Positions 4,480 to 56,896 of a DNA stretch of 64,000 bases are shown in pieces. The first letter of the stretch is position 1, and each line of letters begins with the position of its first letter. Under the pieces are notes generated by a model. That model did not search any database and was not told the DNA's origin. It saw only the letters and a program-made list of their open reading frames with translations. Source of the DNA: a virus; IMG/VR virus record IMGVR_UViG_3300035696_000013, positions 1 to 64,000 of that record. One strand, given 5' to 3'. The position numbers were made by a program, and so were the translations under genes.

Positions 4480-5277
4480 TTAACCATTCCCTCCCGGAGA
4501 GTAGTATTGTGCAGACTTGGTAGTAGTTAAGCTAAACCCAATTGTTTGAGTAGTAGTCGTTCCATAGGAAGAAACCTGAGCCGTAACGTTTACACGAGTT
4601 GGATCAATTGGATCCGTTACTGCTACCACATTGGTTACATCCTTTAAAGTTTCTAGAGGATCCAGGGTTTGAATAGTCCGCTGAGAATTTTGAATCGATT
4701 GAATTTGTAACAATGATGTTACAATCGCATTACCAATGTCTGCATCTGTTATTGTTACCCCGAACTTTTTACCAAGATAATTCTTAATGGGACAAGTAAA
4801 TTGTGGATAGAAGGGACAAGTAGAAGTGAGTATGAATTTCAAGCTCTTTTGTACTAATTTGTCACTCTGAACAACATGAAGAAAAGCTCCATTTGCAGCT
4901 ATCTTCAAATCATTCAATTGGCCCATTCCATTACACTTGAGACAAAAAGTAATTGGACAGAAGTAAGAAACTTCTATCAATGGATTCACAAGTCGAACTT
5001 GTTTGTTAAACAGAATCTTATAGAATACATAACTTGTTGATTCCAAACGTCCGCTATCTATGATAAAACTGTAGCCATACACAGGATCCGTAGGATTGAC
5101 CAATTTACCCGAAATATAAAGCTCTACCTGAGAGGTACCGTTAATGGGTGCTCGCATGTTGATTGCAGTATTTGCAGCAAGATGCAGAGTACGGAAATCT
5201 TTAGAATCGATGACGTATCGTTCTTTAGAAATCTGATGATCGCAAGGTGCTTGTTGAACATCGAGATCGTATGACAT
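4480..5277 (-). CDS. Baseplate wedge protein, gp25/gpW-like C-terminal domain
   Basis: 265 aa directly upstream of baseplate J. The C-terminus 'IVTSLLQIQSIQ...LKDVTNVVAVTDPIDPTRVNVTAQV' is typical of a gp25-like fold, and there is a CxxC motif. Confidence 0.55.
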   Translation of the reverse strand: MSYDLDVQQAPCDHQISKERYVIDSKDFRTLHLAANTAINMRAPINGTSQVELYISGKLVNPTDPVYGYSFIIDSGRLESTSYVFYKILFNKQVRLVNPLIEVSYFCPITFCLKCNGMGQLNDLKIAANGAFLHVVQSDKLVQKSLKFILTSTCPFYPQFTCPIKNYLGKKFGVTITDADIGNAIVTSLLQIQSIQNSQRTIQTLDPLETLKDVTNVVAVTDPIDPTRVNVTAQVSSYGTTTTQTIGFSLTTTKSAQYYSPGGNG

Positions 5278-5951
5278 TAGACTACTGCATCCTGTGCTTC
5301 TTTAATTTGAATCGGCGTCTGTGGACTGGAATGATTCATTCGCTCCAATTCCCACTGCGTCGGGAAATCAAACTGATGAACACGGAATCGTGGTCCAGCT
5401 GCGGCTCCTGAGCCGTATTGATCGGTCTGATCCTTCACTAAAACTGCTTGGTATTCGTTCTTGGCGAATAGACCATCGATATCGGACAACAACTGAGTGA
5501 CATTGTTAACTGCTGTAGAGCTAACCGCATCGTTTGCATACTGTGCCGCATCTTCATGCTTTTCAATGATGGTCCGAACAAGATTCATGTAAAAAACACC
5601 TTCATCATCTCGTTGGAATTGCGCTTGCATAGCTGTCTTCAATTTTGCCACTGTAACCATTGGAATGTGATCGTCACGATAAGCGTAATTGAAATGTCCA
5701 TAAGGACCCGGCTGCCAAGCTTCCTTTTGGAAAGTGGGAGTTAATTTCTGGTCATTCGTATTGGCATAGAATTGCTCTAATACACCAGCTGTTTTACGCA
5801 ATTGCTGCGCTCTAATTTGATGATGCAATTGTATAGCAGCAAATTTACTCTTCCGAGCATTTACCCATGCTTTCAGATTATCTCGTTGAGTTTCGGAGAA
5901 ATTGCCCAGAAAATTGAAAGGCGGTCCAGGTAGTGCATATTTATAGGCCAT
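5277..5951 (-). CDS. Hypothetical virion protein
   Basis: 224 aa ORF translationally coupled to its neighbours. Confidence 0.6.
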   Translation of the reverse strand: MAYKYALPGPPFNFLGNFSETQRDNLKAWVNARKSKFAAIQLHHQIRAQQLRKTAGVLEQFYANTNDQKLTPTFQKEAWQPGPYGHFNYAYRDDHIPMVTVAKLKTAMQAQFQRDDEGVFYMNLVRTIIEKHEDAAQYANDAVSSTAVNNVTQLLSDIDGLFAKNEYQAVLVKDQTDQYGSGAAAGPRFRVHQFDFPTQWELERMNHSSPQTPIQIKEAQDAVV

Positions 5952-7206
5952 AATTCCTCGCTGTCGCGTATAATGTTGGCCAAGCTAATAGAAGATCGCC
6001 AAATTGCCGAATTCTATCACGGAAAGAGGAAAGAGGAAGACCTAGTGGTGTAACAAAAGGAGCGCCATTTTTCAACTCAGTACGAACTTTCTCAATCTCT
6101 TGTATGATAAAGTCAGGAAGACCCAGAGACCAGATCTCTAATTTCAAAGCAACTCGCTGCCGCCAACGAGCAACTAGATTCGCTGTATATTCTGAGAAAT
6201 TAGAAGCCGAACTAATGCTCTTTAAAGTCAATCCAAATTCTTCAAGAGAACTGGGATTATCTTCGTAAAGTATCTTGATAATGAATTCTCCAAAGTTGGG
6301 AATCGGAAACGTCTTTTGTTCTTCCTCAAGATTGGCTTCCCGTTCGGCTGTGTGTAGCATAGCATAATTGCAATAAGCTGACCGTTCTAGAAAACAATTC
6401 CGCAACATCAATCCAAAAAGAATATCCTCTCCTCGTTGGACAGGAAGGAAAGGGGGAGTCAATTTTTCTGCATTAATTCCCATGCTCATACCTGAGCCAC
6501 AAATCCAATTTACTATCGTAGGATTAGAAGTGTATCTAAGAATTTTACGATGTTGAAGAGCAGTTCTCATTGCTTCAAGAGACTTTATTCTGTTTAAGAA
6601 TTCTAGGTCTCCCAGAAAATGATAAGAATTACTCACACCTGAATCTCCTACCGAACCACCTACAGTTAGAACTACACCTTCTTGCATGAGTCTTTGATGG
6701 CAAGATATGAAATCTTCATCGATTAATTCGCATTCTTTTTCTAGAATCTGTGTAGTTGGGAACTCTATGGAAGGTCCAAGAATATGATCGATTTCATCAT
6801 TCTTATCGGGTATAGGAGCAAATTTGCATTTCATGTCGTCGTCTAGCATGATAAATCGTTTTCCAGCTAAAAGAAGAAGGAAGAAATTTCTAACCGCACC
6901 CATAGCAACAGGATCATCAGGGAGTAAAGCAAAATTTGCGACATCAAGAGAACAACCAGATTCTAGAACTAAATCTCGAACAAACGAAGCTCTAAATTTT
7001 CGATCAAAATGGGAAAATGGCAATTTAGATTCTTCCAATACAGATCGGTTCTGAGGTACTATAGAGTCGTCTGAATCATCAGCAACTATTAGATAGACTT
7101 CTTTTCCAAATTTGTTAGTGTTAGCTCGAAGACTTTCTACGCATTGTCGAAGATTAGCCGTTCTATTCTTTGTCAGAATAGTCAGGATTGGGAGGGAAGT
7201 TTCCAT
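5941..7206 (-). CDS. GT-A fold (family 2-like) glycosyltransferase
   Basis: N-terminal 'ILTILTKNRTANLRQCVESL', 'IVADDS', 'GAVRNF', DxD motif 'FIMLDDDM' and 'RGEDILFG'. Confidence 0.7.
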   Translation of the reverse strand: METSLPILTILTKNRTANLRQCVESLRANTNKFGKEVYLIVADDSDDSIVPQNRSVLEESKLPFSHFDRKFRASFVRDLVLESGCSLDVANFALLPDDPVAMGAVRNFFLLLLAGKRFIMLDDDMKCKFAPIPDKNDEIDHILGPSIEFPTTQILEKECELIDEDFISCHQRLMQEGVVLTVGGSVGDSGVSNSYHFLGDLEFLNRIKSLEAMRTALQHRKILRYTSNPTIVNWICGSGMSMGINAEKLTPPFLPVQRGEDILFGLMLRNCFLERSAYCNYAMLHTAEREANLEEEQKTFPIPNFGEFIIKILYEDNPSSLEEFGLTLKSISSASNFSEYTANLVARWRQRVALKLEIWSLGLPDFIIQEIEKVRTELKNGAPFVTPLGLPLSSFRDRIRQFGDLLLAWPTLYATARNYGL

Positions 7207-7207
7207 T

Positions 7208-9874
7208 TTATTTCACAATTGCGCCTGAGTTGTGAGTGTAGATGTATTTTCCTGGCTCTACACCTGCAGCAAAGTTACGTCCTCCACAATTCAGATGCGC
7301 AACCCGGCGCACGCCTAAACATTGAACTTCTACCAGCGGAGACCATTCAGGTTCATTACCCAAATCAGTTATAACATGCATTCCCGGTTCAAGGATATAA
7401 GCCAAGGCTGGAATTCGAGTTGGATCTTCGTTCCGTAGCCACATAGCAAGATTCTCTTGAGTGGGCACAGGGGTGCTTCCCGATACAACAACTTGTGCCC
7501 CGTTTTCTGCTCTAAGATGGTAACAAATCTCATCACTGTATTCCACCTTAACAATCTCCGTCAATTCTGTAGAAGGAAGAGCCGTAAGATATTGATTTAC
7601 TTCTCCTTCTAGAACTTGAACCAACATGTCAGGAATAGCATTAGCTACTTGATGATATTCACTGATATACATCTCCACAGCTGGGCATCCGCCACCACCA
7701 CCTGAAGTCGTATAAGTGTAAACAGTGCTGCCCCAATACACAGGCGACATAGAAAGACTATTCTGATCCACGCAAGAGAATCCGAGATTGTAGCTAGGCG
7801 GAAGGCTAGATTCAACAACGCTTATTTGATATGTCTTAAAGAAAACTGTTTGACCATTCACGATTCCTGTAGAAGAGCTAGTCGGCACACTTGAAGTTCC
7901 CAGTGTACTTTGACTAGATGAATTAGCTACACGCAACAAGAAGGATACTGTGTTGCTGACGTTTGTAGGATTGTAAACTGTAGCACTTATATTAATATTC
8001 ACAGTACCCGAAGTACCGCTAACCGAAGGACTAAAGCTGTAAAAAACCGGAGGTGCTAAAGCTTGACCTTGCAAAGTGATAGTCGCGATAGTTAGGTTGT
8101 TTACATAGACCACATTTCCTACTGTAAATGTTGTTCCATTCAAATAAGTCAAGTTACCCTGAATAGTAGCATTCAAAGAAGCACTAACGTTGACCGAAGA
8201 AACAGGAACTGAAGCTGTGACATTCCAGCCCGTTAACCATCCTTGAGCATCAAGAATTGGACTTGGAGTTCCAACTGTAGTTACTCCACCACTCCAAGAA
8301 GTTGTAATAGCAATTGTATTGCCTGTATTGAAAGCTCCTTGCTGTTGTGGAGAAATTGGTTTTGTGAGATTGATTGTGAAAATATGCTGCTGTCCATCTG
8401 CTGGAACAGTTGTCGGAGTAACAGAAGCAACAAACGGATTAGGATTGACCATATAGTCAATTTCAATGGTGGACTGGATACCTCCTCCGCTTACCGAAGC
8501 AGCAAACACATCATACGCTTTGTTAGTCGAATCAAACCAGGCAATATCGTTGTTTGTAATTGTCAGTTGTGTGGTATCGGAGTGAGAAATGAAACCCCCA
8601 CCATTATAGCTCAGATCAAAATTCGTACCATCATAAGTGATGGATAACAGTCCTTGCCAAGAAGTGTTGTTTCCCGTAAGAGCAAATGTAGCTCCCGCTG
8701 CTGTAGGTTTGTCTACAGGATTTCCATTGTAAAGAGGGAAGTTAAATACGTTACTCGAAGGACTGTTGTAGACAAAAATCTTACCTATGGTTCCTTCGAG
8801 AAGTGGAATGTAAGACTTGGTTGCATAATGAATGCCGTTAACATTGACATTCAACGTAACTGTATCTCCTACAATGTGGAAATTGCCATTTGCTAGTGAA
8901 AGTTGCAAATTACCCGAAGGAGTCGTCGCCGATGGAGCTGCTTGAGCAGCGACAGGAAGAATTACTCCACCCAATGCAGGGCCAAATTGCCCAGTTGGAA
9001 TCTGAGCAGATCCTGGTGTGTAAGTCATCTGATGAAAAGTAGTAGCATCAGGGTTATTGATCCACCAAATCATGAAAGGATAGATACCAACAGTTGGGAA
9101 GTTGATATAGATGTAATCAGTAGAACCAATGTTGCTTAAACCCCCTGTATTACGAGTACCAATCAATGGCCACGCTGGAAGTGTACCAATAACCAAATTT
9201 GCACTCGCCGGAGCATCTAGATTGCCGCCGTTGATTACCATGGTTCCTTGTGAACGCGCAGGGGTTTGACCATCAATGACATTCGGACCCATGTAAAGTG
9301 CCCATGAATCGTCCACCAACCAATAGAAAGTATGAACACCCGGAGTAGAAACTACGATGCTACCCTGGAATGTACAAATGAATGAATTCTGAAAAGGTAA
9401 CGGAGAGTCTGATGCCCAAGTTCCTGTGGCTGTGACTAAGTTAACATGCGGAGGAACAACTTCGTATTCTCCCGAATGGCCATCGGGAGATACTAATCCC
9501 GAGATTGGTGTATTGTTAAATGGCTGATTCACGATTACTGTATTAAAAGGACCAATTAAACTTGAAATAGGAGCACCAATACCATCCCAGTTTGAATGGC
9601 CACCAGGATTGGTGTAGCCTTGAATCATCAAGTTATTGAGTAAAGAAACAGCACCATTCGTTGCTTGCCACGCCAGGTTAGCTGCATTCGAAGTATAGGG
9701 ACTTCCAGCAATAGTTGCGGTAGCTTGAGCCGTATCCAATCCACCATGTGCACCTGTAAACGAAACGGTACCCGATCCCGAACCAGCAACCGGATCCACA
9801 TTAATCTGGATCTGTTTGGATTGAGGATTTGCGCTTCCTGCGCCGATCGTTATGGTAATGGTCTCAACTGGCAT
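7208..9874 (-). CDS. Virion protein with PA14-like domain and C-terminal Hint (intein-like) domain
   Basis: PA14-like 'FQGSIVVSTPGVHTFYWLVDDSWALY'. The C-terminus has a Gly linker then Cys (GGGGG-C) and ends in THN-SGAIVK. Confidence 0.65.
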   Translation of the reverse strand: MPVETITITIGAGSANPQSKQIQINVDPVAGSGSGTVSFTGAHGGLDTAQATATIAGSPYTSNAANLAWQATNGAVSLLNNLMIQGYTNPGGHSNWDGIGAPISSLIGPFNTVIVNQPFNNTPISGLVSPDGHSGEYEVVPPHVNLVTATGTWASDSPLPFQNSFICTFQGSIVVSTPGVHTFYWLVDDSWALYMGPNVIDGQTPARSQGTMVINGGNLDAPASANLVIGTLPAWPLIGTRNTGGLSNIGSTDYIYINFPTVGIYPFMIWWINNPDATTFHQMTYTPGSAQIPTGQFGPALGGVILPVAAQAAPSATTPSGNLQLSLANGNFHIVGDTVTLNVNVNGIHYATKSYIPLLEGTIGKIFVYNSPSSNVFNFPLYNGNPVDKPTAAGATFALTGNNTSWQGLLSITYDGTNFDLSYNGGGFISHSDTTQLTITNNDIAWFDSTNKAYDVFAASVSGGGIQSTIEIDYMVNPNPFVASVTPTTVPADGQQHIFTINLTKPISPQQQGAFNTGNTIAITTSWSGGVTTVGTPSPILDAQGWLTGWNVTASVPVSSVNVSASLNATIQGNLTYLNGTTFTVGNVVYVNNLTIATITLQGQALAPPVFYSFSPSVSGTSGTVNINISATVYNPTNVSNTVSFLLRVANSSSQSTLGTSSVPTSSSTGIVNGQTVFFKTYQISVVESSLPPSYNLGFSCVDQNSLSMSPVYWGSTVYTYTTSGGGGGCPAVEMYISEYHQVANAIPDMLVQVLEGEVNQYLTALPSTELTEIVKVEYSDEICYHLRAENGAQVVVSGSTPVPTQENLAMWLRNEDPTRIPALAYILEPGMHVITDLGNEPEWSPLVEVQCLGVRRVAHLNCGGRNFAAGVEPGKYIYTHNSGAIVK

Positions 9875-51762: not shown

Positions 51763-51916
51763 CTGGAAGAAGTAAAGAAATAACTACCTGATTTCTAATT
51801 GTTGATCGTAGTATCAATTGTGAAGCCGAGTATAGGAAGCGGCAAAGCCGCACAACGAAACTCGGAAGTCAAGGACTGACTGGCTGTACAGATGCATCGT
51901 CTACCTTGCAAAGTTT

Positions 51917-52019
51917 TGCACTGTGGTGCGATGGTTGCAACGCCATCTAACTGCGAGGAGCAGGGCCACAACTGGGATATCCCGGCAGGGAGAGTTAGGT
52001 TCAAATCCTAACAGTACAT
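51917..52019 (+). ncRNA. tRNA-like RNA with anticodon arm replaced by a multi-hairpin insert
   Basis: Acceptor TGCACTG/CAGTACA, D-like arm, T arm TTAGG-TTCAAAT-CCTAA; no anticodon loop and no encoded CCA. Confidence 0.5.
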
Positions 52020-52186
52020 TTGAGATGCCGTTCCGGACGGCGCTGGACCCATTTACGGCGAGGAGCCTAAACGGTGGGCAACCATCCGGAAAACTATTGG
52101 GAAGAAGTAAAAAAGTAGGCGGTGGGTGCTATCTGACAAGATCTTGCAAGGTTTTGTCAGGTAACGAGCCGCACCCACAAAGTTTT

Positions 52187-52274
52187 GTGTCTGTAGCTTA
52201 GAGGCAAAGCGGCAGCCATTAGCCCTTGGGCGCGTGGCAGCAGATCAGTGGTTCGAGTCCACTCGGATACACCA
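52187..52274 (+). ncRNA. Anticodon-less tRNA mimic with G3-U70 and CCA
   Basis: GTGTCTG/CGGATAC-ACCA, D arm GCTT-AGAGGC-AAAGC, T arm AGTGG-TTCGAGT-CCACT; extended anticodon arm capped by a CUUG loop. Confidence 0.65.
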
Positions 52275-52700
52275 GAATCAGGGTCCGTTACAAGGGTCCC
52301 TTCGTGCCCACTCTGTGATGGGGTGGGGACAGGGACCCTGCTGGGCGGATCCGGGGAAGGCGGACTAATCAACCGTCTGTCCCAAATTTTATGAGCGTGA
52401 ATTTGCCGCTTACACGATTTGATGAGGCCAAGCAGTTGGCTCTCTCTGGCAACTATACCCTAAATGCCATCGTGGATCCACGATGTAGGACGCCAGAGGA
52501 TGTGGATTCCGGGTCCACTGGAACTCATCAATCCTTTCGTTATAGAAGTATTAAGTAGAGACGTACAAGTTTGAATTGGTCAATGCCAATTCATGCGGAG
52601 TAAACGCAAGGTCCGGGTGCTGCTGAAAAGCTGCAGTCTGAGCGCAACCTAAATAGGCGACACGCGAAGTAAGATGCACCCGGCATCTAATTTTTGAGTT

Positions 52701-52831
52701 TTGTGGTGCAGTGGGGATGGCGACCCACACTTATGCTAATAGAGGAGCTATGATGCTTGGCCGTTTTCGGTCGGTGAATAAACCGTGGCTGTAACTCCTC
52801 CAGCACCCGCGTTCGAATCCGGGCACCACAA
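52701..52831 (+). ncRNA. tRNA-like RNA with large central insert
   Basis: TTGTGGTGC/GCACCACAA closing stem, GTGGG/CCCAC D-like stem, GAGGAG/CTCCTC central helix and GTTCGAATC T loop. Confidence 0.5.
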
Positions 52832-53110
52832 TCAAGTTCCTAATTGCTGTGGCATTAGCGGCCAAGGCTCGATGGAATACCCAAGCGATGACAACCTGCT
52901 CCTAGTACGGCTACTATATCGCTAGAAGGTCGGAAGAGGGTCAGTAATTAGGATTCAAGTTTAGCAGCTGGATATTATGAGCAGCACCGGGTGGATAAAA
53001 TCAGAAGGCTGAACGCCGAGACTGGACCATCTGAAGCCGAAAGCTAGGTTGCTAAATTGATTTTTTCGCTTGTTTACCCGAAATTGGGAAATACGGAGTA
53101 TAATAGCAAT

Positions 53111-53215
53111 ATGAAGAACGCAGCACAAGTAGAACGAGATTGTAACGGAGCCACTGAACCTGGCGTCGCAGACGCGGGGACGGTGTCCTCGGACGTAATT
53201 GTGGAGGGCGGTTAG
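53111..53215 (+). CDS. Putative attenuator leader peptide (34 aa, GNN-codon rich)
   Basis: MKNAAQVERDCNGATEPGVADAGTVSSDVIVEGG*. TATAAT at 53099-53104 lies 6 nt before the ATG; 21 of 34 codons are GNN; the ORF overlaps the antiterminator strand. Confidence 0.65.
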   Translation: MKNAAQVERDCNGATEPGVADAGTVSSDVIVEGG

Positions 53216-53251
53216 CAACCGATTCAAACCACAAGATCGACCGAGGACGCC
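53182..53251 (+). promoter_or_regulatory. Antiterminator hairpin
   Basis: GGTGTCCTCGG (53182-53192) pairs with CCGAGGACGCC (53241-53251), with inner pairs TTGTGG/CCACAA and CGGTT/AACCG; it overlaps the terminator 5' arm. Confidence 0.7.
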
Positions 53252-53278
53252 CATTAAACCGGGCGTCCTTTTTGTTTT
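53244..53278 (+). terminator. Rho-independent terminator of the attenuator
   Basis: AGGACGCCC/GGGCGTCCT 9-bp stem followed by TTTTGTTTT. Confidence 0.85.
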
Positions 53279-53294
53279 ATAGTATTGTTTTACT

Positions 53295-53699
53295 ATGGGT
53301 CATGTGGAAAAATTTAATGAAAAAGAAAAGTGGTGTCCAAAGTGTGAGAAATGGATATTACTCAATGATTTCTATACGGATACTGATAGAAAAAGTGGAC
53401 GACGAACATATTGCAAGCTTTGCGAACGCTTAAAGAAAGCAGAATATGGTACAAATTCTCGAGATAAACTTTTAAATCCTGAAGAAATCAAAGTTCTTTG
53501 GGAAAATCAAGATCGTAAATGTGCCATATGTCGTAAAGAGATTGATTATTTAAGTGGTCATTTAGATCACGATCATGCAACAGGTCAAGCACGTGGGCTG
53601 CTTTGTAAGTGGTGTAATCTTGGATTAGGATGGTTTAAAGACAATTCTGAACTCTTAAAAGCAGCCATAGATTACTTGAAAAGATTTTCGCGCTGTTAG
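53295..53699 (+). CDS. Endonuclease VII-type HNH (free-standing homing) endonuclease
   Basis: 'CPKC...CKLC', 'CAIC...HLDHDHATGQARGLLCKWCNLGLGWFKDN'. Confidence 0.85.
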   Translation: MGHVEKFNEKEKWCPKCEKWILLNDFYTDTDRKSGRRTYCKLCERLKKAEYGTNSRDKLLNPEEIKVLWENQDRKCAICRKEIDYLSGHLDHDHATGQARGLLCKWCNLGLGWFKDNSELLKAAIDYLKRFSRC

Positions 53700-53765
53700 C
53701 TTAGTGGCAAAAGCATCTGCTTTACACGCAGGGGAACGGAGGTTCGAGTCCTCCACGGCGCACCA
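53690..53765 (+). tRNA. tRNA-Val(TAC)
   Basis: Cloverleaf GCGCTGT/ACGGCGC, loop TT-TAC-AC, encoded CCA. Confidence 0.92.
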
Positions 53766-53770
53766 AGATT

Positions 53771-53871
53771 GTTAGCAGCTGTAGAACTTAGTTTAACTGG
53801 CTAGAACTCCGGCCTTGGCCGGAGGCGGGAGGTTCGAGTCCTTCCAGTTCATTACATGTACCGCTGCTGAC
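53771..53871 (+). ncRNA. tRNA-like RNA with CUUG-capped anticodon stem and extended closing stem
   Basis: GTTAGCAGC/GCTGCTGAC outer stem, GAACT/AGTTC, D arm, TCCGGC-CTTG-GCCGGA, T arm GGAGG-TTCGAGT-CCTTC. Confidence 0.55.
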
Positions 53872-53937
53872 AGACAGGAGAGGCGGGTCTGATTCCGAGT
53901 CATGTCCGGGATATGACCCGCGCTCCCAAAAAGATTT

Positions 53938-54012
53938 GCGGCTTTCGTATAGTGGCTCGTATGTAGCCTTGCCAAGGCTGAGGCGCGGGTTCGATTCCCG
54001 CAAGCCGCTCCA
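53938..54012 (+). tRNA. tRNA-Gly(GCC)
   Basis: GCGGCTT/AAGCCGC, loop TT-GCC-AA, U73, CCA. Confidence 0.92.
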
Positions 54013-54031
54013 AGAGAGATTTAGATTTTTA

Positions 54032-54106
54032 GGTGACGTAGCATAATGGGAGTGCGCTTCCCCGTCACGGAAGAGTGTGGGGGTTCGAGTCCCCTCGTCA
54101 TCGCCA
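54032..54106 (+). tRNA. tRNA-Asp(GTC), C33 variant
   Basis: GGTGACG/CGTCATC, loop CC-GTC-AC, G73, CCA. Confidence 0.88.
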
Positions 54107-54113
54107 AGTTTAG

Positions 54114-54192
54114 GGTCTCATAGAGGAGTCCGGCTGTCCTCGTTTCCCTGTCACGGAAAAGATCGCGGGTTCAAATCCCGCTGGGACCGCCA
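54114..54192 (+). tRNA. tRNA-Asp(GTC)
   Basis: GGTCTCA/TGGGACC, loop CT-GTC-AC, G73, CCA. Confidence 0.92.
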
Positions 54193-54232
54193 AATTTAGA
54201 CCGGGCATTTATACTAGACCGCCCAATAATGT

Positions 54233-54255
54233 GGCCGTCTTCGGACGGCCTTTTT
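54233..54255 (+). terminator. Rho-independent terminator inside the tRNA array
   Basis: GGCCGTC-TTCG-GACGGCC followed by TTTTT. Confidence 0.8.
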
Positions 54256-54270
54256 ATCTAGAAAGTTTTT

Positions 54271-54347
54271 GGACTGGTAGCCAAGACGGTAAGGTGATCG
54301 CCTGCAAAGCGATTAATGCGTGAGTTCGATTCTCACCCAGTCCTCCA
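54271..54347 (+). tRNA. tRNA-Cys(GCA)
   Basis: GGACTGG/CCAGTCC, loop CT-GCA-AA, U73, CCA. Confidence 0.9.
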
Positions 54348-54353
54348 GAGTTT

Positions 54354-54427
54354 GGGGTTATAGTTCAGTGGGAGAACAGATGCATGGCATGCATCAGACC
54401 GGGGTTCGAATCCCCGTAGCTCCACCA
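54354..54427 (+). tRNA. tRNA-Ala(GGC)
   Basis: GGGGTTA/TAGCTCC with G3-U70, loop AT-GGC-AT, CCA. Confidence 0.92.
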
Positions 54428-54434
54428 AGTTTGT

Positions 54435-54508
54435 GGGGTCATCGTTCAACGGGAGGATGATTGGTTTGCACCCAGTAGATAGGGGTTCGATTCCCCTTGG
54501 CTCCACCA
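54435..54508 (+). tRNA. tRNA-Ala(TGC)
   Basis: GGGGTCA/TGGCTCC with G3-U70, loop TT-TGC-AC, CCA. Confidence 0.92.
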
Positions 54509-54514
54509 AAAGTT

Positions 54515-54875
54515 TACACAAGGCCGGACGATCGCGTAGTCTGTACGATGCGAGGAAAGTCAGGACAACACAGAGCAACGTGCCGGAGAAAGACCGGGCA
54601 TCCAGCAATGGATGACAGCTAGCGCAACAGAAAATAAACCGCCATGGTAATCCGTAAGGATTGCTGATGGTAAGGGTGAAAAGGCGGTGTAAGAGACCAC
54701 CGGGTCGTCAGTAATGACGGTCGCATGGCAAGCCTCACGTGTTGCAACTCTAAATAGGCAGAGAGAACCTGCTCGGTTCGTTATAATCTGCGGGTTAGGG
54801 GCTAGAGCCATCCGGTAACGGCTGGCCAAGATGAATGATCGTCCTTGACAAAATCCTGCTTACAGGTCTTGTGTA
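54515..54875 (+). ncRNA. rnpB: Bacterial-type RNase P RNA
   Basis: P1 TACACAAGGCC/GGTCTTGTGTA; CR-I GAGGAAAGTCAGGAC; AGCGCAACAGAAA; GGGTGAAAAGGCGGTGTAAGAGACCACC; CR-V ACAAAATCCTGCTTA, with compensatory P4 pairing (CAGG/CCTG). Confidence 0.92.
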
Positions 54876-54882
54876 CTAGAAT

Positions 54883-55010
54883 TTGCCGTGGTGAGAGTTG
54901 ACGGTTACTTCTCTTATAAAGAAGAGATGCGTGGTTCGAATCCCGCTACCCTCCGGGGTATAGTTCAATGGCAGAACGCTAAAAACACTGTTAACGTTTG
55001 TTCCCGGCAA
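54883..55010 (+). ncRNA. yrlA: YrlA-type Y RNA (permuted tRNA mimic)
   Basis: Terminal stem TTGCCG/CGGCAA and GTTGACGG/CTGTTAAC; T arm GGTTCGAATCC, loop-closed acceptor TACCC-TCCG-GGGTA, then D arm TAGTTCAATGGCAGAAC, in YrlA order. Confidence 0.8.
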
Positions 55011-55014
55011 TAAT

Positions 55015-55088
55015 GCGGGGTTGGCATATTGGCAGTGCGCCAGCCTTCCAAGCTGGATAAGCGCGTTCGATTCGCGTACCCCGCTCCA
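55015..55088 (+). tRNA. tRNA-Gly(TCC) copy 1
   Basis: GCGGGGT/ACCCCGC, loop CT-TCC-AA, CCA. Confidence 0.9.
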
Positions 55089-55162
55089 AGTTTATGCTTT
55101 TGCTCGTGTAGTTTAAGGGAAGAACGCTAAAAACACTGTTAACGTTTGTTCCCGGCAATAAT

Positions 55163-55236
55163 GCGGGGTTGGCATATTGGCAGTGCGCCAGCCTTCCAAG
55201 CTGGATAAGCGCGTTCGATTCGCGTACCCCGCTCCA
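55163..55236 (+). tRNA. tRNA-Gly(TCC) copy 2
   Basis: Identical copy within the tandem duplication. Confidence 0.85.
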
Positions 55237-55248
55237 AGTTTATGCTTT

Positions 55249-55352
55249 TGCTCGTGTAGTTTAAGGGAAGAACGCCGGAAGACCGAGACACCTACAAGGT
55301 GGAGTAGGCATTCAAATGTCGGGATGTTGGCTTCGAGTTCCAACCACGAGCA
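55249..55352 (+). ncRNA. tRNA-like RNA with anticodon arm replaced by three small hairpins
   Basis: TGCTCGTG/CACGAGCA, D arm GTTT-AAGGGAA-GAAC, T arm GTTGG/CCAAC; insert CGG/CCG, CACCT/AGGTG, GCATT/AATGT. Confidence 0.55.
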
Positions 55353-55361
55353 TTTAAGTTT

Positions 55362-55434
55362 GCACTGGTAGTTCAGTGGCAAGAATATCCGCTTCACATG
55401 CGGAAGACCGCTGGTTCGAATCCAGCCCAGTGTA
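55362..55434 (+). tRNA. tRNA-Val(CAC), no encoded CCA
   Basis: GCACTGG/CCAGTGT, loop TT-CAC-AT; 1 nt from the next tRNA. Confidence 0.88.
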
Positions 55435-55435
55435 C

Positions 55436-55511
55436 GCACTGTTAGATTAGTGGCTAAATCATTCGCTCGACACGCGAAAGAACATAGGTTCAACTCCTAT
55501 ACAGTGCACCA
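55436..55511 (+). tRNA. tRNA-Val(GAC), C33 variant
   Basis: GCACTGT/ACAGTGC, loop TC-GAC-AC, CCA. Confidence 0.88.
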
Positions 55512-55518
55512 AGATTAA

Positions 55519-55594
55519 GGGTCTATAGCTCAATTGGGAGAGCGTTCCCTTCGCATGGGAGAGGTTGTGAGTTCAAATCTCATTAGATCCACCA
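55519..55594 (+). tRNA. tRNA-Ala(CGC)
   Basis: GGGTCTA/TAGATCC with G3-U70, loop TT-CGC-AT, CCA. Confidence 0.92.
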
Positions 55595-55601
55595 AGTTTA
55601 T

Positions 55602-55674
55602 GGGCGGGTTGCATCTGGTAGAAAGGACATGCCTTTCTTTGCGATGCGTAAAATCCTAGGTCTCCTGTCCACCA
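55602..55674 (+). ncRNA. Non-cloverleaf RNA with Ala-type acceptor stem and CCA
   Basis: GGGCGGG/CCTGTCC-ACCA (G3-U70, A73); the body is a GCATC/GATGC plus AGAAAGG/CCTTTCT rod with no canonical D or T arm. Confidence 0.5.
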
Positions 55675-55679
55675 AGTTT

Positions 55680-55832
55680 GGGCTTGTCGTGGTGAACTAG
55701 CATGCCGAAAGCCGATAGCTGAGGTCAGCACATTAGGCCAATGTTGCCTCTGCTCAGCATGAACAGCCGCAAGGCACGTTCTTCAGGAAGGCCGAGATGC
55801 ATAGTAGGGGTTCGATTCCCCTCAAGTCCACC
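55680..55832 (+). ncRNA. Miniature tmRNA-like RNA
   Basis: GGGCTTG/CAAGTCC-A (G3-U70), stemless D loop, ATGC/GCAT connector, T arm AGGGG-TTCGATT-CCCCT; only about 150 nt long. Confidence 0.55.
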
Positions 55833-55838
55833 TAGTTT

Positions 55839-55913
55839 GGCACGTTCGTCTACTGGCTAGGACGCTGGCCCTTCAAGCCGGAAAAGCGGGATCGATACCC
55901 GCACGTGCTACCA
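55839..55913 (+). tRNA. tRNA-Glu(TTC), C33 variant
   Basis: GGCACGT/ACGTGCT, loop CC-TTC-AA, atypical T loop ATCGATA, CCA. Confidence 0.85.
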
Positions 55914-55918
55914 AATTT

Positions 55919-55992
55919 GGCCCTGTCGTTTATTGGTAGGACATCACTCTCTCAAGGTGGAGGAGACGGTTCGATTCCGTTCAGGGCTACCA
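55919..55992 (+). tRNA. tRNA-Glu(CTC)
   Basis: GGCCCTG/CAGGGCT, loop CT-CTC-AA, CCA. Confidence 0.9.
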
Positions 55993-56022
55993 AATCTTAA
56001 ATCTTACAGTATTAAATTCATT

Positions 56023-56275: not shown

Positions 56276-56896
56276 ATGATAGATCCATACGACTTGAGCC
56301 ATCCTTGGGATCGCAATCGATTAGAAGAGTGGATATTGTTTGGTATTTGTGTTGCCAACAAACCTGCTGATCCAACCGCTGTAAAAGTTGACGCTGTTTT
56401 AAATACTCTTCGTGAAGAAATAGTCAATGTCTGTAGTTTCTTTCCGGAATGCGAAACTCCTCCCACTCCTTTTGAACTTGTTGGAATGGCTGCTGAATCA
56501 AACATGTTGAGAAAAATCCTTAAAAAGCATAAGGTCGGTCAATATACAAGAATAGAAAGAGCATTTCGAGAAGTTGTTGAAAAAATCAAAGATCCATTGA
56601 ATACAACTGTAGAAGAATTAGAAACTGTTCACGGAATAGGTCCTAAAACAGCACGGATGATAATGCTCTATTACAAACCTGAGACGGCTTGTGTTCCATT
56701 GGATACTCATGTTCTCAAGTGGCTCAGAGCACAGGGTTATGATGCTCCAAAAGGAACTCCTAGCGGAAAGAAATATCTTGAGTTAGAAAATATCTTCATT
56801 CTTGAAGCTTACAAGCGGGGCATGTCGGTAAAAGATCTGGATAGTCAAGTTTGGGCTTACTACGCTCTTCCTCAGAAACAATCTAAACCTAAATAG
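56276..56896 (+). CDS. HhH-GPD superfamily DNA glycosylase-like protein
   Basis: HhH 'LETVHGIGPKTARM' and 'VPLDTHVLKWL'; no FeS cluster motif. Confidence 0.75.
   Translation: MIDPYDLSHPWDRNRLEEWILFGICVANKPADPTAVKVDAVLNTLREEIVNVCSFFPECETPPTPFELVGMAAESNMLRKILKKHKVGQYTRIERAFREVVEKIKDPLNTTVEELETVHGIGPKTARMIMLYYKPETACVPLDTHVLKWLRAQGYDAPKGTPSGKKYLELENIFILEAYKRGMSVKDLDSQVWAYYALPQKQSKPK

What the first reader, a model, noticed from the sequence alone, without database searches (positions are those of the whole stretch)
52187..55832. Three anticodon-less RNAs carrying the alanine identity set (G3-U70, A73)
Seen: 52187-52274 (full D and T arms, CUUG-capped arm, ACCA), 55602-55674 (rod-shaped body, ACCA) and 55680-55832 (tmRNA-like) all have 7-bp acceptor stems with G3-U70 and A73 but no usable anticodon loop. 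Established: AlaRS charges on G3-U70 without reading the anticodon. Inference: these are alanylatable tRNA mimics acting as decoys for aa-tRNA-targeting toxins, EF-Tu/SmpB ligands or non-ribosomal Ala donors. Three unrelated bodies sharing the same determinant argues against random pseudogene decay.
Basis: partly seen in the sequence, partly recalled or inferred. Interest (0 to 1): 0.75.

Follow-up and report, generated by a model that had tools for sequence, protein, structure and literature searches.

The report
Anticodon-less alanine-type tRNA mimics in phage
A large uncultured peat phage carries, among its ordinary tRNA genes, three small tRNA-shaped RNA genes that keep the mark read by the alanine-charging enzyme but cannot read a codon; one resembles the tag-less mini-tmRNA known from a mycobacteriophage, and what they do is untested.

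Summary
All three stretches have perfect 7-bp acceptor stems with G3-U70 and A73, and none has a 7-nt anticodon loop. They lie in the tRNA / RNase P RNA array of a jumbo phage (132.6-kb record, 41% complete) and are framed like the real tRNAs. E3 ends ACC-T, not ACCA.

G3-U70 is more than chance: 0 of 42 non-Ala tRNAs in three related arrays have it, against 10 of 11 Ala tRNAs. It is not universal, though: at least three other anticodon-less units in the window lack it.

- **E3 (153 nt)** has tmRNA tRNA-like-domain architecture but no tag. It fails the tmRNA models and my model of the DS6A "TLD-only" family.
- **E1** is a full L-shaped tRNA. Its anticodon loop is replaced by a CUUG-capped hairpin.
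- **E2** is an acceptor-stem hairpin with no T arm.

Conservation is patchy. A distant relative (463 kb) has two short G3-U70/A73/CCA elements at the same site, and a low-depth relative keeps E3's 5' strand. The closest relative has none.

No RNA data exist. The reading as alanine-chargeable, non-decoding mimics is plausible but unproven, and decoy or donor roles have no support. This scan has noted the same kind in other phages.

The parts
52187..52274 (+). E1: an L-shaped tRNA-like RNA with acceptor G3-U70, A73 and CCA. D and T arms are intact. The anticodon loop is replaced by a 20-nt closed arm capped by GCC-CUUG-GGC.
   Evidence: Rfam tRNA 45.0 bits with a 19-nt unaligned stretch in the anticodon loop; acceptor scan; fold. 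The best identity to any tRNA of the three arrays is only 60% (45 of 75, Val-tac).
55602..55674 (+). E2: a 73-nt hairpin-type RNA with a 7-bp acceptor stem (G3-U70, G5-U68), A73 and CCA. It has no T arm and no D arm.
   Evidence: Acceptor scan; fold z = -1.90; no Rfam match; flanks identical in type to tRNA flanks.
55680..55832 (+). E3: a 153-nt tmRNA-TLD-like RNA. It has acceptor G3-U70, A73 and CC (then T), a stemless D-loop analogue, a predicted P2-like helix, an internal ~92-nt domain with two hairpins, and a canonical T arm. No tag frame is recognised.
   Evidence: Fold; weak partial tmRNA-model hits on the T arm and acceptor only; no tmRNA called by ARAGORN. A low-depth related contig keeps the 5' strand and part of the interior.
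53784..53851 (+). A second tRNA-like unit whose anticodon arm is a 7-bp stem capped by CUUG. It has a 5-bp acceptor with A3-U70 and no CCA. It shows that the CUUG-capped design recurs without the alanine mark.
   Evidence: Rfam tRNA 33.7 bits with alignment; fold z = -2.45.
55519..55594 (+). Canonical tRNA-Ala(CGC), directly upstream of E2 and E3. It is the syntenic anchor shared with L001 and L002.
   Evidence: ARAGORN; Rfam 63.3 bits; blastn to L002 7737-7900.
54516..54878 (+). Phage-encoded class A RNase P RNA inside the array. It is the likely 5' processing enzyme for all units.
   Evidence: Rfam RF00010, 266.9 bits against a cut-off of 100. It is also present in L001 and L002.

Best explanation
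E1, E2 and E3 are non-decoding, tRNA-derived small RNAs. They are transcribed with the phage's tRNA array and cut out like tRNAs: each has a U-rich leader with U at -1, a 7-bp acceptor helix, and A73 followed by CCA or CC. Because each keeps G3-U70 and A73 on an intact acceptor helix, host alanyl-tRNA synthetase can probably charge them. The steps from charging onwards are inferred, not shown.

E3 works like a tag-less tmRNA. Its tRNA-like domain would bind host SmpB, and EF-Tu once alanylated. It would then either soak up SmpB and dampen host trans-translation, or enter stalled ribosomes without adding a degradation tag.

E1, and perhaps E2, are alanine-type 'shells' whose lower half is closed by a rigid hairpin. 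They would occupy tRNA-binding proteins without being decoded or cut in an anticodon loop. The specific partner is unknown.
For: (1) Anatomy. The acceptor stems are perfect with G3-U70 and A73. E1 and E3 have canonical T arms, and E1 has an intact D arm with the GG of the elbow.

(2) Punctuation. E2 and E3 are framed by the same '...CCA-AGTTT-' spacers as the real tRNAs. E1 has the same T-rich leader but no AGTTT after its CCA. An RNase P RNA lies in the array.

(3) Beyond chance. G3-U70 occurs in 0 of 42 non-Ala tRNAs and in 10 of 11 Ala tRNAs of the three arrays; P = 0.0016-0.008.

(4) Recurrence.
- L002, a 463-kb relative, has two short G3-U70/A73/CCA elements right after the orthologous tRNA-Ala(CGC). 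These are 8035-8096 with a T arm, and about 8135-8190.
- My E3 model's best non-self hit in three whole phage records is that L002 element: 30.6 bits, above tRNA-Ala at 26.8 and 25.2.
- A related low-depth contig in two peat runs puts an element starting with the same 7-nt 5' strand directly after a tRNA-Ala-type 3' end. Its interior matches 55708-55790 with 10 differing letters and 1 gap over 83 nt.

(5) Precedent.
- DS6A 'TLD only' tmRNA is in print (passages of PMC4131195 and PMC11915505).
- I confirmed a structured family around DS6A: 7 sequences, 100% of cells paired, 14 of 21 pairs with changes on both sides, and G3-U70 in 7 of 7. Four of the seven were picked with a pattern that fixes U70; the other three were not.

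(6) Identity rules. AlaRS identity rests on the acceptor stem, not the anticodon (table row and reference list in PMC9976931).
Against: - No expression or charging data exist.
- The closest relative, L001 (neighbouring protein 77% identical), has only 34 nt between tRNA-Ala(CGC) and tRNA-Glu. It has no match to E1, E2 or E3 by blastn or by the E3 model across its 265-kb record. The elements are therefore dispensable or very young.
- None of the three reaches the tmRNA or TLD-only models. E3 scores 18.8 bits on RF00023 (cut-off 47), below tRNA-Ala(GGC) at 33.2.
- Folding energies do not differ from shuffles for E1 and E3.
- G4-C69 of the bacterial Ala set is absent in all three, and E1 also lacks G2-C71 and G20.
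- E2 has no elbow.
- Neither SmpB nor AlaRS is encoded in the three phage records.
- The array contains clear rearrangement debris.
Confidence: 0.4

Rival explanations
1. Evolutionary debris. E1-E3 are decaying or rearranged copies of tRNA-Ala or tmRNA-TLD genes. They still carry the ancestral acceptor stem (hence G3-U70/A73) and the array's processing signals, but have no function of their own.
For: - The array is visibly unstable. It has a 148-nt tandem duplication (54958-55253, 97% identical) that leaves tRNA 5' halves. It has a degenerate tRNA-like unit at 54893-54954 (25.9 bits, below the cut-off). Homing-endonuclease ORFs sit inside the arrays (L001 sequence).
- L001 lacks all three elements.
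- E2 has lost any T arm.
- Descent from Ala-type ancestors alone explains the G-U enrichment.
- Relative G002 has a real permuted tmRNA that could seed TLD fragments.
Against: - All three keep 7 of 7 acceptor pairs, and E1 and E3 keep flawless T arms, whereas the clear debris has broken stems.
- E1 is not a recent copy of any tRNA; its best identity is 60%.
- E1's loop replacement is a self-complementary, tetraloop-capped arm, and the same CUUG-capped design occurs in a second unit.
- G3-U70 elements persist at the same site in a relative whose neighbouring protein is only 50% identical.
Confidence: 0.3
2. Processing punctuation. The units are tRNA-shaped cleavage signals, comparable to 't-elements' or tRNA punctuation. 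They direct RNase P and 3' trimming within the long array transcript. The acceptor helix plus RCCA serves RNase P recognition, not aminoacylation.
For: - The flanks are the same as those of true tRNAs.
- A phage RNase P RNA lies in the array and is itself bracketed by tRNA and tRNA-like units.
- A73-CCA fits the known RCCA contact of bacterial RNase P RNA (recalled knowledge, not tested here).
- A follow-up note on another phage reached this reading for a tRNA top-half mimic (e1-5737495; not checked by me).
Against: - Punctuation does not need G3-U70, yet it is enriched.
- E2 and E3 lie between units that are themselves self-sufficient RNase P substrates, so no extra signal is needed there.
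- E3's 92-nt inner domain is unnecessary for a cleavage signal.
Confidence: 0.15
3. This rival applies to E1 only. E1 is an interrupted tRNA gene whose 11-nt hairpin is removed after transcription, giving a working tRNA. Depending on the excision register, the anticodon would be UAC (Val) or UGC (Ala).
For: - ARAGORN with the intron option and a lowered threshold calls tRNA-Val(tac) with an 11-nt intron.
- Read directly from the sequence, removing 11 nt one base to the left leaves AUUGCGU, i.e. anticodon UGC, which would match G3-U70/A73.
- Phage tRNAs with 'enigmatic introns' are reported for Lak megaphages (passages of PMC6784885).
Against: - No register puts the insert at the canonical 37/38 site.
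- The resulting stem would have 6 bp with an A-A mismatch.
- The bulges face each other, so there is no bulge-helix-bulge motif.
- No RtcB-type ligase is found in the three records.
- The phage already has intact Val(UAC) and Ala(UGC) genes.
- A second unit has the same CUUG cap with no anticodon-like remainder.
Confidence: 0.08

Closest known systems
'TLD only' tmRNA of mycobacteriophage DS6A (JN698994 28478-28560; Hudson, Lau & Williams 2014, PMC4131195; Mao et al. 2009 as cited there)
   Same: It is a phage-encoded, tag-less RNA with a G3-U70/A73 acceptor, a stemless D-loop analogue, a P2 helix and a T arm. E3 shares this architecture, and its D-loop analogue contains the same GGUG motif.
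   Different: DS6A is 83 nt and scores 43.2 bits on RF00023; E3 is 153 nt and scores 18.8. E1-E3 all fail a covariance model built from seven DS6A-type members. E1 has a D arm and a closed anticodon arm. E2 has no T arm.
tmRNA tRNA-like domain, including the two-piece (permuted) tmRNA of the related 463-kb phage G002
   Same: Alanine identity on the acceptor stem, no anticodon, and processing like a tRNA. The G002 tmRNA 5' piece and the short L002 element both continue with TCACGGC right after the acceptor strand, and E3 continues with TCGTGG.
   Different: E3 has no recognised tag frame and ARAGORN calls no tmRNA; I did not look for pseudoknots. The G002 tmRNA has the tag ATAPKALAMAAAA and scores 73.4 bits on RF04321. 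No SmpB gene is found in any of the three phages.
CDS-less tmRNAs of jakobid mitochondria and Mallomonadaceae plastids (as described in passages of PMC11915505)
   Same: A tmRNA reduced to the alanine-accepting tRNA-like part.
   Different: These are organellar, about 65 bp in the plastid cases, and are homologous to neighbouring tmRNAs. Homology of E3 to any tmRNA is not shown.
Alanine minihelix / microhelix substrates of AlaRS (Francklyn & Schimmel 1989, seen only in the reference list of PMC9976931)
   Same: An acceptor helix with G3-U70 and A73-CCA, without an anticodon, is enough for charging in vitro. E2 is essentially such a helix with an unrelated body.
   Different: Those are laboratory constructs. 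E2 and E3 have C4-G69 instead of G4-C69, and E1 has U2-A71 and U4-A69.
tRNAs with 'enigmatic introns' in Lak megaphages (Devoto et al. 2019, PMC6784885)
   Same: These are huge-phage tRNA genes with an extra insert in the anticodon region and an unknown removal mechanism. E1 can be read that way.
   Different: E1's insert is only 11-13 nt, is not at the canonical site, and leaves no clean anticodon stem-loop.

Membership tests
tmRNA (Rfam RF00023 / RF04321; ARAGORN) | Acceptor stem with G3-U70 and discriminator A73 | tested here: met
   E3 has GGGCUUG/CAAGUCC with A73. CCA is only partly encoded (ACC-T).
tmRNA (Rfam RF00023 / RF04321; ARAGORN) | T arm plus a stemless D-loop analogue, joined by a long-range P2 helix | tested here: inconclusive
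   The T arm is canonical. P2 (8 pairs with one bulge) appears in the minimum-energy fold, but only 3 of its pairs remain in the centroid, and z = -0.47. No homologue with both strands is visible for covariation.
tmRNA (Rfam RF00023 / RF04321; ARAGORN) | mRNA-like domain with a resume codon and a tag reading frame ending in a stop | tested here: not met
   ARAGORN finds no tmRNA in the window or in the 132.6-kb record. By eye there are only short or atypical frames (4, 2 and 14 codons), none ending like a known tag.
tmRNA (Rfam RF00023 / RF04321; ARAGORN) | Score at or above the family's gathering cut-off | tested here: not met
   E3 scores 18.8 bits on RF00023 (cut-off 47), below tRNA-Ala(GGC) at 33.2. 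RF04321 gives 19.4 bits, at a different place.
TLD-only tmRNA (DS6A type) | About 80 nt: acceptor, D-loop analogue, short P2 hairpin and T arm, matching a covariance model of known and inferred members | tested here: not met
On model R3 (7 members) E1 scores 23.8, E3 17.0 (partial, 55772-55833) and E2 9.0 bits, against 34.3 for tRNA-Ala(GGC).
TLD-only tmRNA (DS6A type) | Binds SmpB and inhibits trans-translation | not testable with these tools
   This needs gel-shift and reporter assays. The claim for a similar molecule comes from Mao 2009, as cited in PMC4131195; I did not read Mao 2009.
Bacterial tRNA-Ala identity set (A73, G2-C71, G3-U70, G4-C69, G20; PMC9976931 table) | G3-U70 and A73 | tested here: met
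   3 of 3 elements.
Bacterial tRNA-Ala identity set (A73, G2-C71, G3-U70, G4-C69, G20; PMC9976931 table) | G2-C71, G4-C69 and G20 | tested here: not met
   G2-C71 is present in E2 and E3 but not in E1 (U2-A71). G4-C69 is present in 0 of 3: E1 has U-A, and E2 and E3 have C-G. E1 has C at position 20, and E2 and E3 have no D arm.
Canonical decoding tRNA (Rfam RF00005) | Cloverleaf scoring above the cut-off, with a 7-nt anticodon loop | tested here: not met
   E1 passes the score (45.0 against 29) but has a 20-nt closed 'loop'. E2 and E3 give no full-length tRNA hit.

The most novel reading that the evidence does not exclude
Jumbo-phage tRNA arrays carry a fast-evolving toolkit of alanine-chargeable, anticodon-less tRNA mimics: a tag-less tmRNA-like form, a minihelix-like form, and a full L-shape with a tetraloop-sealed anticodon arm. 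Once alanylated and bound by EF-Tu or SmpB, these would act as uncleavable sponges. They would either disable host trans-translation or soak up host defence enzymes that grip the tRNA body. Alanine identity would be used because it is the one identity readable without an anticodon.
Probability: 0.2. Interest if true: 0.75.

Novelty: new variant of a known kind. Interest (0 to 1): 0.45.

Why it matters
If these RNAs are made and charged, phages would have a cheap RNA-only way to tap or block host machinery that recognises the top half of a tRNA: AlaRS, EF-Tu, SmpB and the ribosome-rescue pathway, RNase P, and possibly tRNA-directed defence nucleases. In my four literature searches and the passages I read, only one such phage RNA (DS6A) is mentioned, and its role rests on a single heterologous experiment. 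This window offers three differently built versions in one operon, plus a second CUUG-sealed unit without the alanine mark as a natural control. That makes a compact test set for asking which feature matters. If they are debris, the locus is still a clear example of how phage tRNA arrays turn over.

Tried and rejected
**Homologue searches that gave little**
- blastn (distant mode) of 51800-56000 against 50,697 phage records matched 25 records. All matches lay on canonical tRNA segments; none lay on E1, E2 or E3.
- blastn against the L001 and L002 arrays gave 30 alignments, none on E1-E3.
- A protein-anchored search of viral contigs returned 6 loci, of which only L001 and L002 carry arrays.
- The same search of metagenome contigs returned 8 loci. 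L133 is the L002 contig again, L135 and L136 re-find L006 and L003, and the 5 short new contigs have no tRNA.
- An RNase P RNA pattern found only L001's contig.
- An exact 27-mer from the E3 interior found 0 stretches.

**Model tests**
- R1 (DS6A + L115) and R3 (7 members) do not recognise E1-E3 above tRNA background.
- R3 over 100 pattern-derived loci found only 4 hits, all training members. The short 44-58-nt elements (L009, L021, L026, L055) are therefore not DS6A-type by this test either.

**Readings rejected**
- E3 as a standard or permuted tmRNA: no tag, and scores below the cut-offs.
- E2 + E3 as a two-piece tmRNA: by eye, E3's 5' strand does not pair with E2's 3' strand.
- E1 as a recent duplicate of a tRNA: best identity 60%.
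- E1 as a bulge-helix-bulge intron: no such motif.

**Expression**
- No RNA holder was listed for the stretch, so expression could not be examined.
- The laid runs are DNA contigs only.

**Phage-encoded partners**
- SmpB, AlaRS and RtcB were each found in 0 of 3 records. A CCA-adding-type enzyme was found only in G002. G000 is 41% complete and G001 78% complete, so absence there is weak.

**Literature**
- Searches gave listings only, apart from the passages read in PMC4131195, PMC11915505, PMC9976931, PMC6784885 and PMC7191817.
- PMC7191817 has 0 occurrences of phage, virus or viral.
- I did not see Mao et al. 2009 or any supplement. The tmRNA database tables and the Lak intron tables may bear on the comparison.

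Full report
**Setting**

The window is the first 64 kb of a 132,623-bp IMG/VR virus record estimated at 41% complete, so it belongs to a jumbo phage. The only runs that hold it are peat metagenomes.

Positions 51.8-56.0 kb are a G+C-richer non-coding block: about 51% G+C against about 42% elsewhere. ARAGORN finds 15 tRNA genes there, Val x3, Ala x3, Gly x3, Asp x2, Glu x2, Cys and one odd unit. Rfam finds a class A RNase P RNA at 54516-54878 with 266.9 bits. An endonuclease VII/HNH-type ORF lies at 53295-53699. A second array, with Tyr, Leu, Pro, Ser, Met and Phe, lies at 84-92 kb.

**The observation**

All three stretches are as described.

- **E1 (52187-52274).** It has a mismatch-free 7-bp acceptor stem with G3-U70, then A73 and CCA, and perfect D and T arms. 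It scores 45.0 bits on the tRNA model. Nineteen bases are unaligned where the model has six in the anticodon loop, and the anticodon stem has an A-A mismatch. The extra bases pair into CA/UG, a 3x3 internal loop and GCC-CUUG-GGC.
- **E2 (55602-55674).** It has GGGCGGG/CCUGUCC with A73-CCA, no T arm and no Rfam match.
- **E3 (55680-55832).** It has GGGCUUG/CAAGUCC, A73 and CC followed by T, with a canonical T arm and no D stem. Its minimum-energy fold contains a P2-like long-range helix enclosing a roughly 92-nt domain with two hairpins. In the centroid structure only the acceptor, the T arm, three pairs of P2 and one GCAA-capped hairpin survive.

Folding energies do not stand out from shuffles: z = -0.98, -1.90 and -0.47.

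**Is G3-U70 chance?**

In the three related arrays, 0 of 42 non-Ala tRNAs have G3-U70. It is present in 10 of 11 ARAGORN-called Ala tRNAs; the eleventh is a degenerate gene in L002. G-U in that orientation fills 13 of 294 acceptor positions. Three or more hits among 6-10 odd units therefore has P of 0.0016-0.008. The mark is either inherited from Ala-type ancestors or selected.

It is not a property of every anticodon-less unit here:

- 53784-53851 is a tRNA-like RNA whose anticodon arm is a 7-bp stem capped by the same CUUG. It has a 5-bp acceptor with A3-U70 and no CCA.
- 52703-52829 has G3-C70.
- The unit starting at 51918 has A3-U70 and a C-A mismatch.

**Framing**

E2 and E3 sit between '...CCA-AGTTT...' spacers of exactly the type that separates the real tRNAs. 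E1 follows the same '...AAAGTTTT' leader. All three have T at -1. Together with the phage's own RNase P RNA, this makes excision as separate small RNAs likely. That step is inferred, not shown.

**Relatives**

The protein encoded just downstream (56276-56896) led to two jumbo-phage contigs with syntenic arrays. Both carry an RNase P RNA.

- **L001 (265 kb, 77% identical).** It has only 34 nt between tRNA-Ala(CGC) and tRNA-Glu(UUC). Nothing resembling E1-E3 appears by blastn or by a covariance model of E3 run over the whole record.
- **L002 (463 kb, 50% identical).** It has, right after the orthologous tRNA-Ala(CGC), a 62-nt element (8035-8096). This has the same 5' strand as E2, G3-U70, A73, CCA and a T arm, but no D or anticodon arm. 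A further short G3-U70/A73/CCA element lies at about 8135-8190. The 62-nt element is the best non-self hit of the E3 model: 30.6 bits, against 26.8 and 25.2 for tRNA-Ala genes.
- **A related low-depth contig.** Laying the DNA contigs of the peat runs on the array showed a 443-nt contig at depth 4.2 and 2.8. A tRNA-Ala-type 3' end is followed by an element that starts with E3's seven 5' bases. Its D-loop/P2 region differs, and it then matches 55708-55790 with 10 differing letters and one gap over 83 nt. Its 3' half was not aligned, so U70 and P2 covariation could not be read.

In short, conservation exists but is patchy.

**Comparison with what is known**

Hudson, Lau and Williams list mycobacteriophage DS6A as having a 'TLD only' tmRNA. 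They state that a similar molecule, chargeable or not, strongly inhibits tmRNA, perhaps by titrating SmpB, citing Mao et al. 2009 (passages). Nawrocki et al. 2025 repeat this and add CDS-less organellar forms (passages).

I located the DS6A element at JN698994 28478-28560; it scores 43.2 bits on RF00023.

Parsing them gave, besides ordinary tRNAs and tmRNA 3' ends, a set of short G3-U70 elements without an anticodon arm.

A model seeded with DS6A and L115 pulled out five further members at 41-67 bits. In the resulting 7-sequence alignment 100% of cells are paired, 14 of 21 pairs change on both sides, and G3-U70 is present in 7 of 7. Four of the seven had been selected by a pattern that fixes U70; DS6A and the L095 and L104 hits had not. 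The DS6A type is therefore a real, conserved phage RNA family.

E1-E3 do not belong to it by this test. On the 7-sequence model E1 scores 23.8 bits, E3 17.0 (partial) and E2 9.0, while tRNA-Ala(GGC) scores 34.3. On RF00023, E3 scores 18.8 against 33.2 for tRNA-Ala(GGC). E3 resembles a tmRNA tRNA-like domain in layout but is not a demonstrable member.

The complete relative G002 does encode a genuine two-piece tmRNA with tag ATAPKALAMAAAA, scoring 73.4 bits on RF04321. TLD-type sequences are therefore available in this clade. No SmpB or AlaRS gene is found in any of the three records, so any partner would be the host's.

**Alanine identity**

The bacterial set tabulated by Giege and Eriani is A73, G2-C71, G3-U70, G4-C69 and G20 (passage).

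| Element | A73 | G3-U70 | G2-C71 | G4-C69 | G20 |
|---|---|---|---|---|---|
| E1 | yes | yes | no (U2-A71) | no (U-A) | no (C at 20) |
| E2 | yes | yes | yes | no (C-G) | no D arm |
| E3 | yes | yes | yes | no (C-G) | no D arm |

Charging is therefore plausible, since the major determinant is present, but it may be inefficient, especially for E1.

**E1**

E1 is not a recent copy of any tRNA in the three arrays; the best identity is 45 of 75 aligned positions, to Val(UAC).

Shifting the cut by one base would give anticodon UGC. No register fits the canonical intron site, however. The stem would have 6 bp with a mismatch, no RtcB is found, and intact Val(UAC) and Ala(UGC) genes exist. Lak megaphage tRNAs with unexplained introns are the nearest precedent (passages).

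The recurrence of a CUUG-sealed arm in a second unit argues for a deliberately closed anticodon arm rather than an intron.

**Weighing**

For function:
- Flawless acceptor helices and T arms, in contrast to the array's evident debris.
- Non-chance G3-U70.
- tRNA-like framing.
- Recurrence at the same site in a distant relative, and the E3 homologue in a nearer one.
- A published precedent.

Against function:
- Absence from the closest relative.
- Failure of every family model.
- Unremarkable folding energies.
- An incomplete identity set.
- No expression data.
- An unstable array: a 148-nt tandem duplication at 54958-55253 with tRNA 5' halves, and homing-endonuclease ORFs.

I put 0.40 on functional, alanine-chargeable, non-decoding mimics, with E3 acting on the SmpB/trans-translation axis. 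I put 0.30 on debris, 0.15 on pure processing signals, and 0.08 on an intron-bearing E1.

**Relation to earlier notes**

This scan has flagged the same kind of element in other phages, for example e1-4035959, e1-4046740, e1-6078984 and e1-6091656. Those are AI notes that I did not verify on their DNA. They are not independent evidence, but they mean this instance is one more example of a recurring, barely published class rather than a singular find.

Noticed in passing
window 54516-54878; L001 6191-6568; L002 6389-6709: A class A RNase P RNA gene lies inside the tRNA array of this phage (266.9 bits) and of both relatives (170.3 and 208.2 bits). My literature searches turned up no paper describing phage-encoded RNase P RNA. 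Earlier notes of this scan report the same in other phages.
   Followed up: partly
window 53690-55992 and G000 84212-92079: The first array decodes almost only GNN codons (Val, Ala, Asp, Glu, Gly) plus Cys. The second array holds Tyr, Leu x4, Pro x3, Ser, Met x2 and Phe. The GNN set and its gene order are shared with L001 and L002.
   Followed up: partly
window 54958-55253: A 148-nt tandem duplication (97% identical) duplicates tRNA-Gly(UCC). It leaves two truncated tRNA 5' halves and, downstream, a roughly 100-nt tRNA-like unit (about 55250-55353) with an oversized insert and an odd T loop. Run contigs break at this repeat.
   Followed up: partly
window 53784-53851: A second tRNA-like unit has its anticodon arm sealed by a 7-bp stem and a CUUG tetraloop, the same cap as E1. 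It has a 5-bp acceptor and no G3-U70.
   Followed up: yes
window 51815-53060 (e.g. 51918-52012, 52124-52180, 52703-52833): Upstream of a strong terminator-like hairpin (53243-53270) lies about 1.2 kb of non-coding sequence. It holds several structured units preceded by the same AGTTTT leader. Positions 51852-51919 are 82% identical to L001 2763-2830. No Rfam family matches.
   Followed up: partly
L138 1352-1697 (G002 about 242.9-243.2 kb, minus strand): The 463-kb relative encodes a two-piece (permuted) tmRNA with tag ATAPKALAMAAAA (ARAGORN; RF04321 73.4 bits). It also encodes a 453-aa CCA-adding-type nucleotidyltransferase at 461 kb.
   Followed up: partly
L002 5089-5808: A 239-aa ORF sits between two tRNA genes of the relative's array. 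It resembles a class II aminoacyl-tRNA synthetase core, just under Pfam's cut-off (PF00587, 28.5 against 29.3 bits).
   Followed up: partly
window 53295-53699; L001 about 4940-5470 and 6718-7520: Endonuclease-type ORFs sit inside the arrays (endonuclease VII/HNH in the window). In L001 one such ORF appears to split a tRNA-Cys-like gene into a 5' fragment (about 4870) and a 3' gene (5579-5657). This was read only.
   Followed up: no
window 54233-54250: A strong terminator-like hairpin with a T run lies inside the array, between tRNA-Asp and tRNA-Cys. It suggests more than one transcription unit, or attenuation.
   Followed up: no
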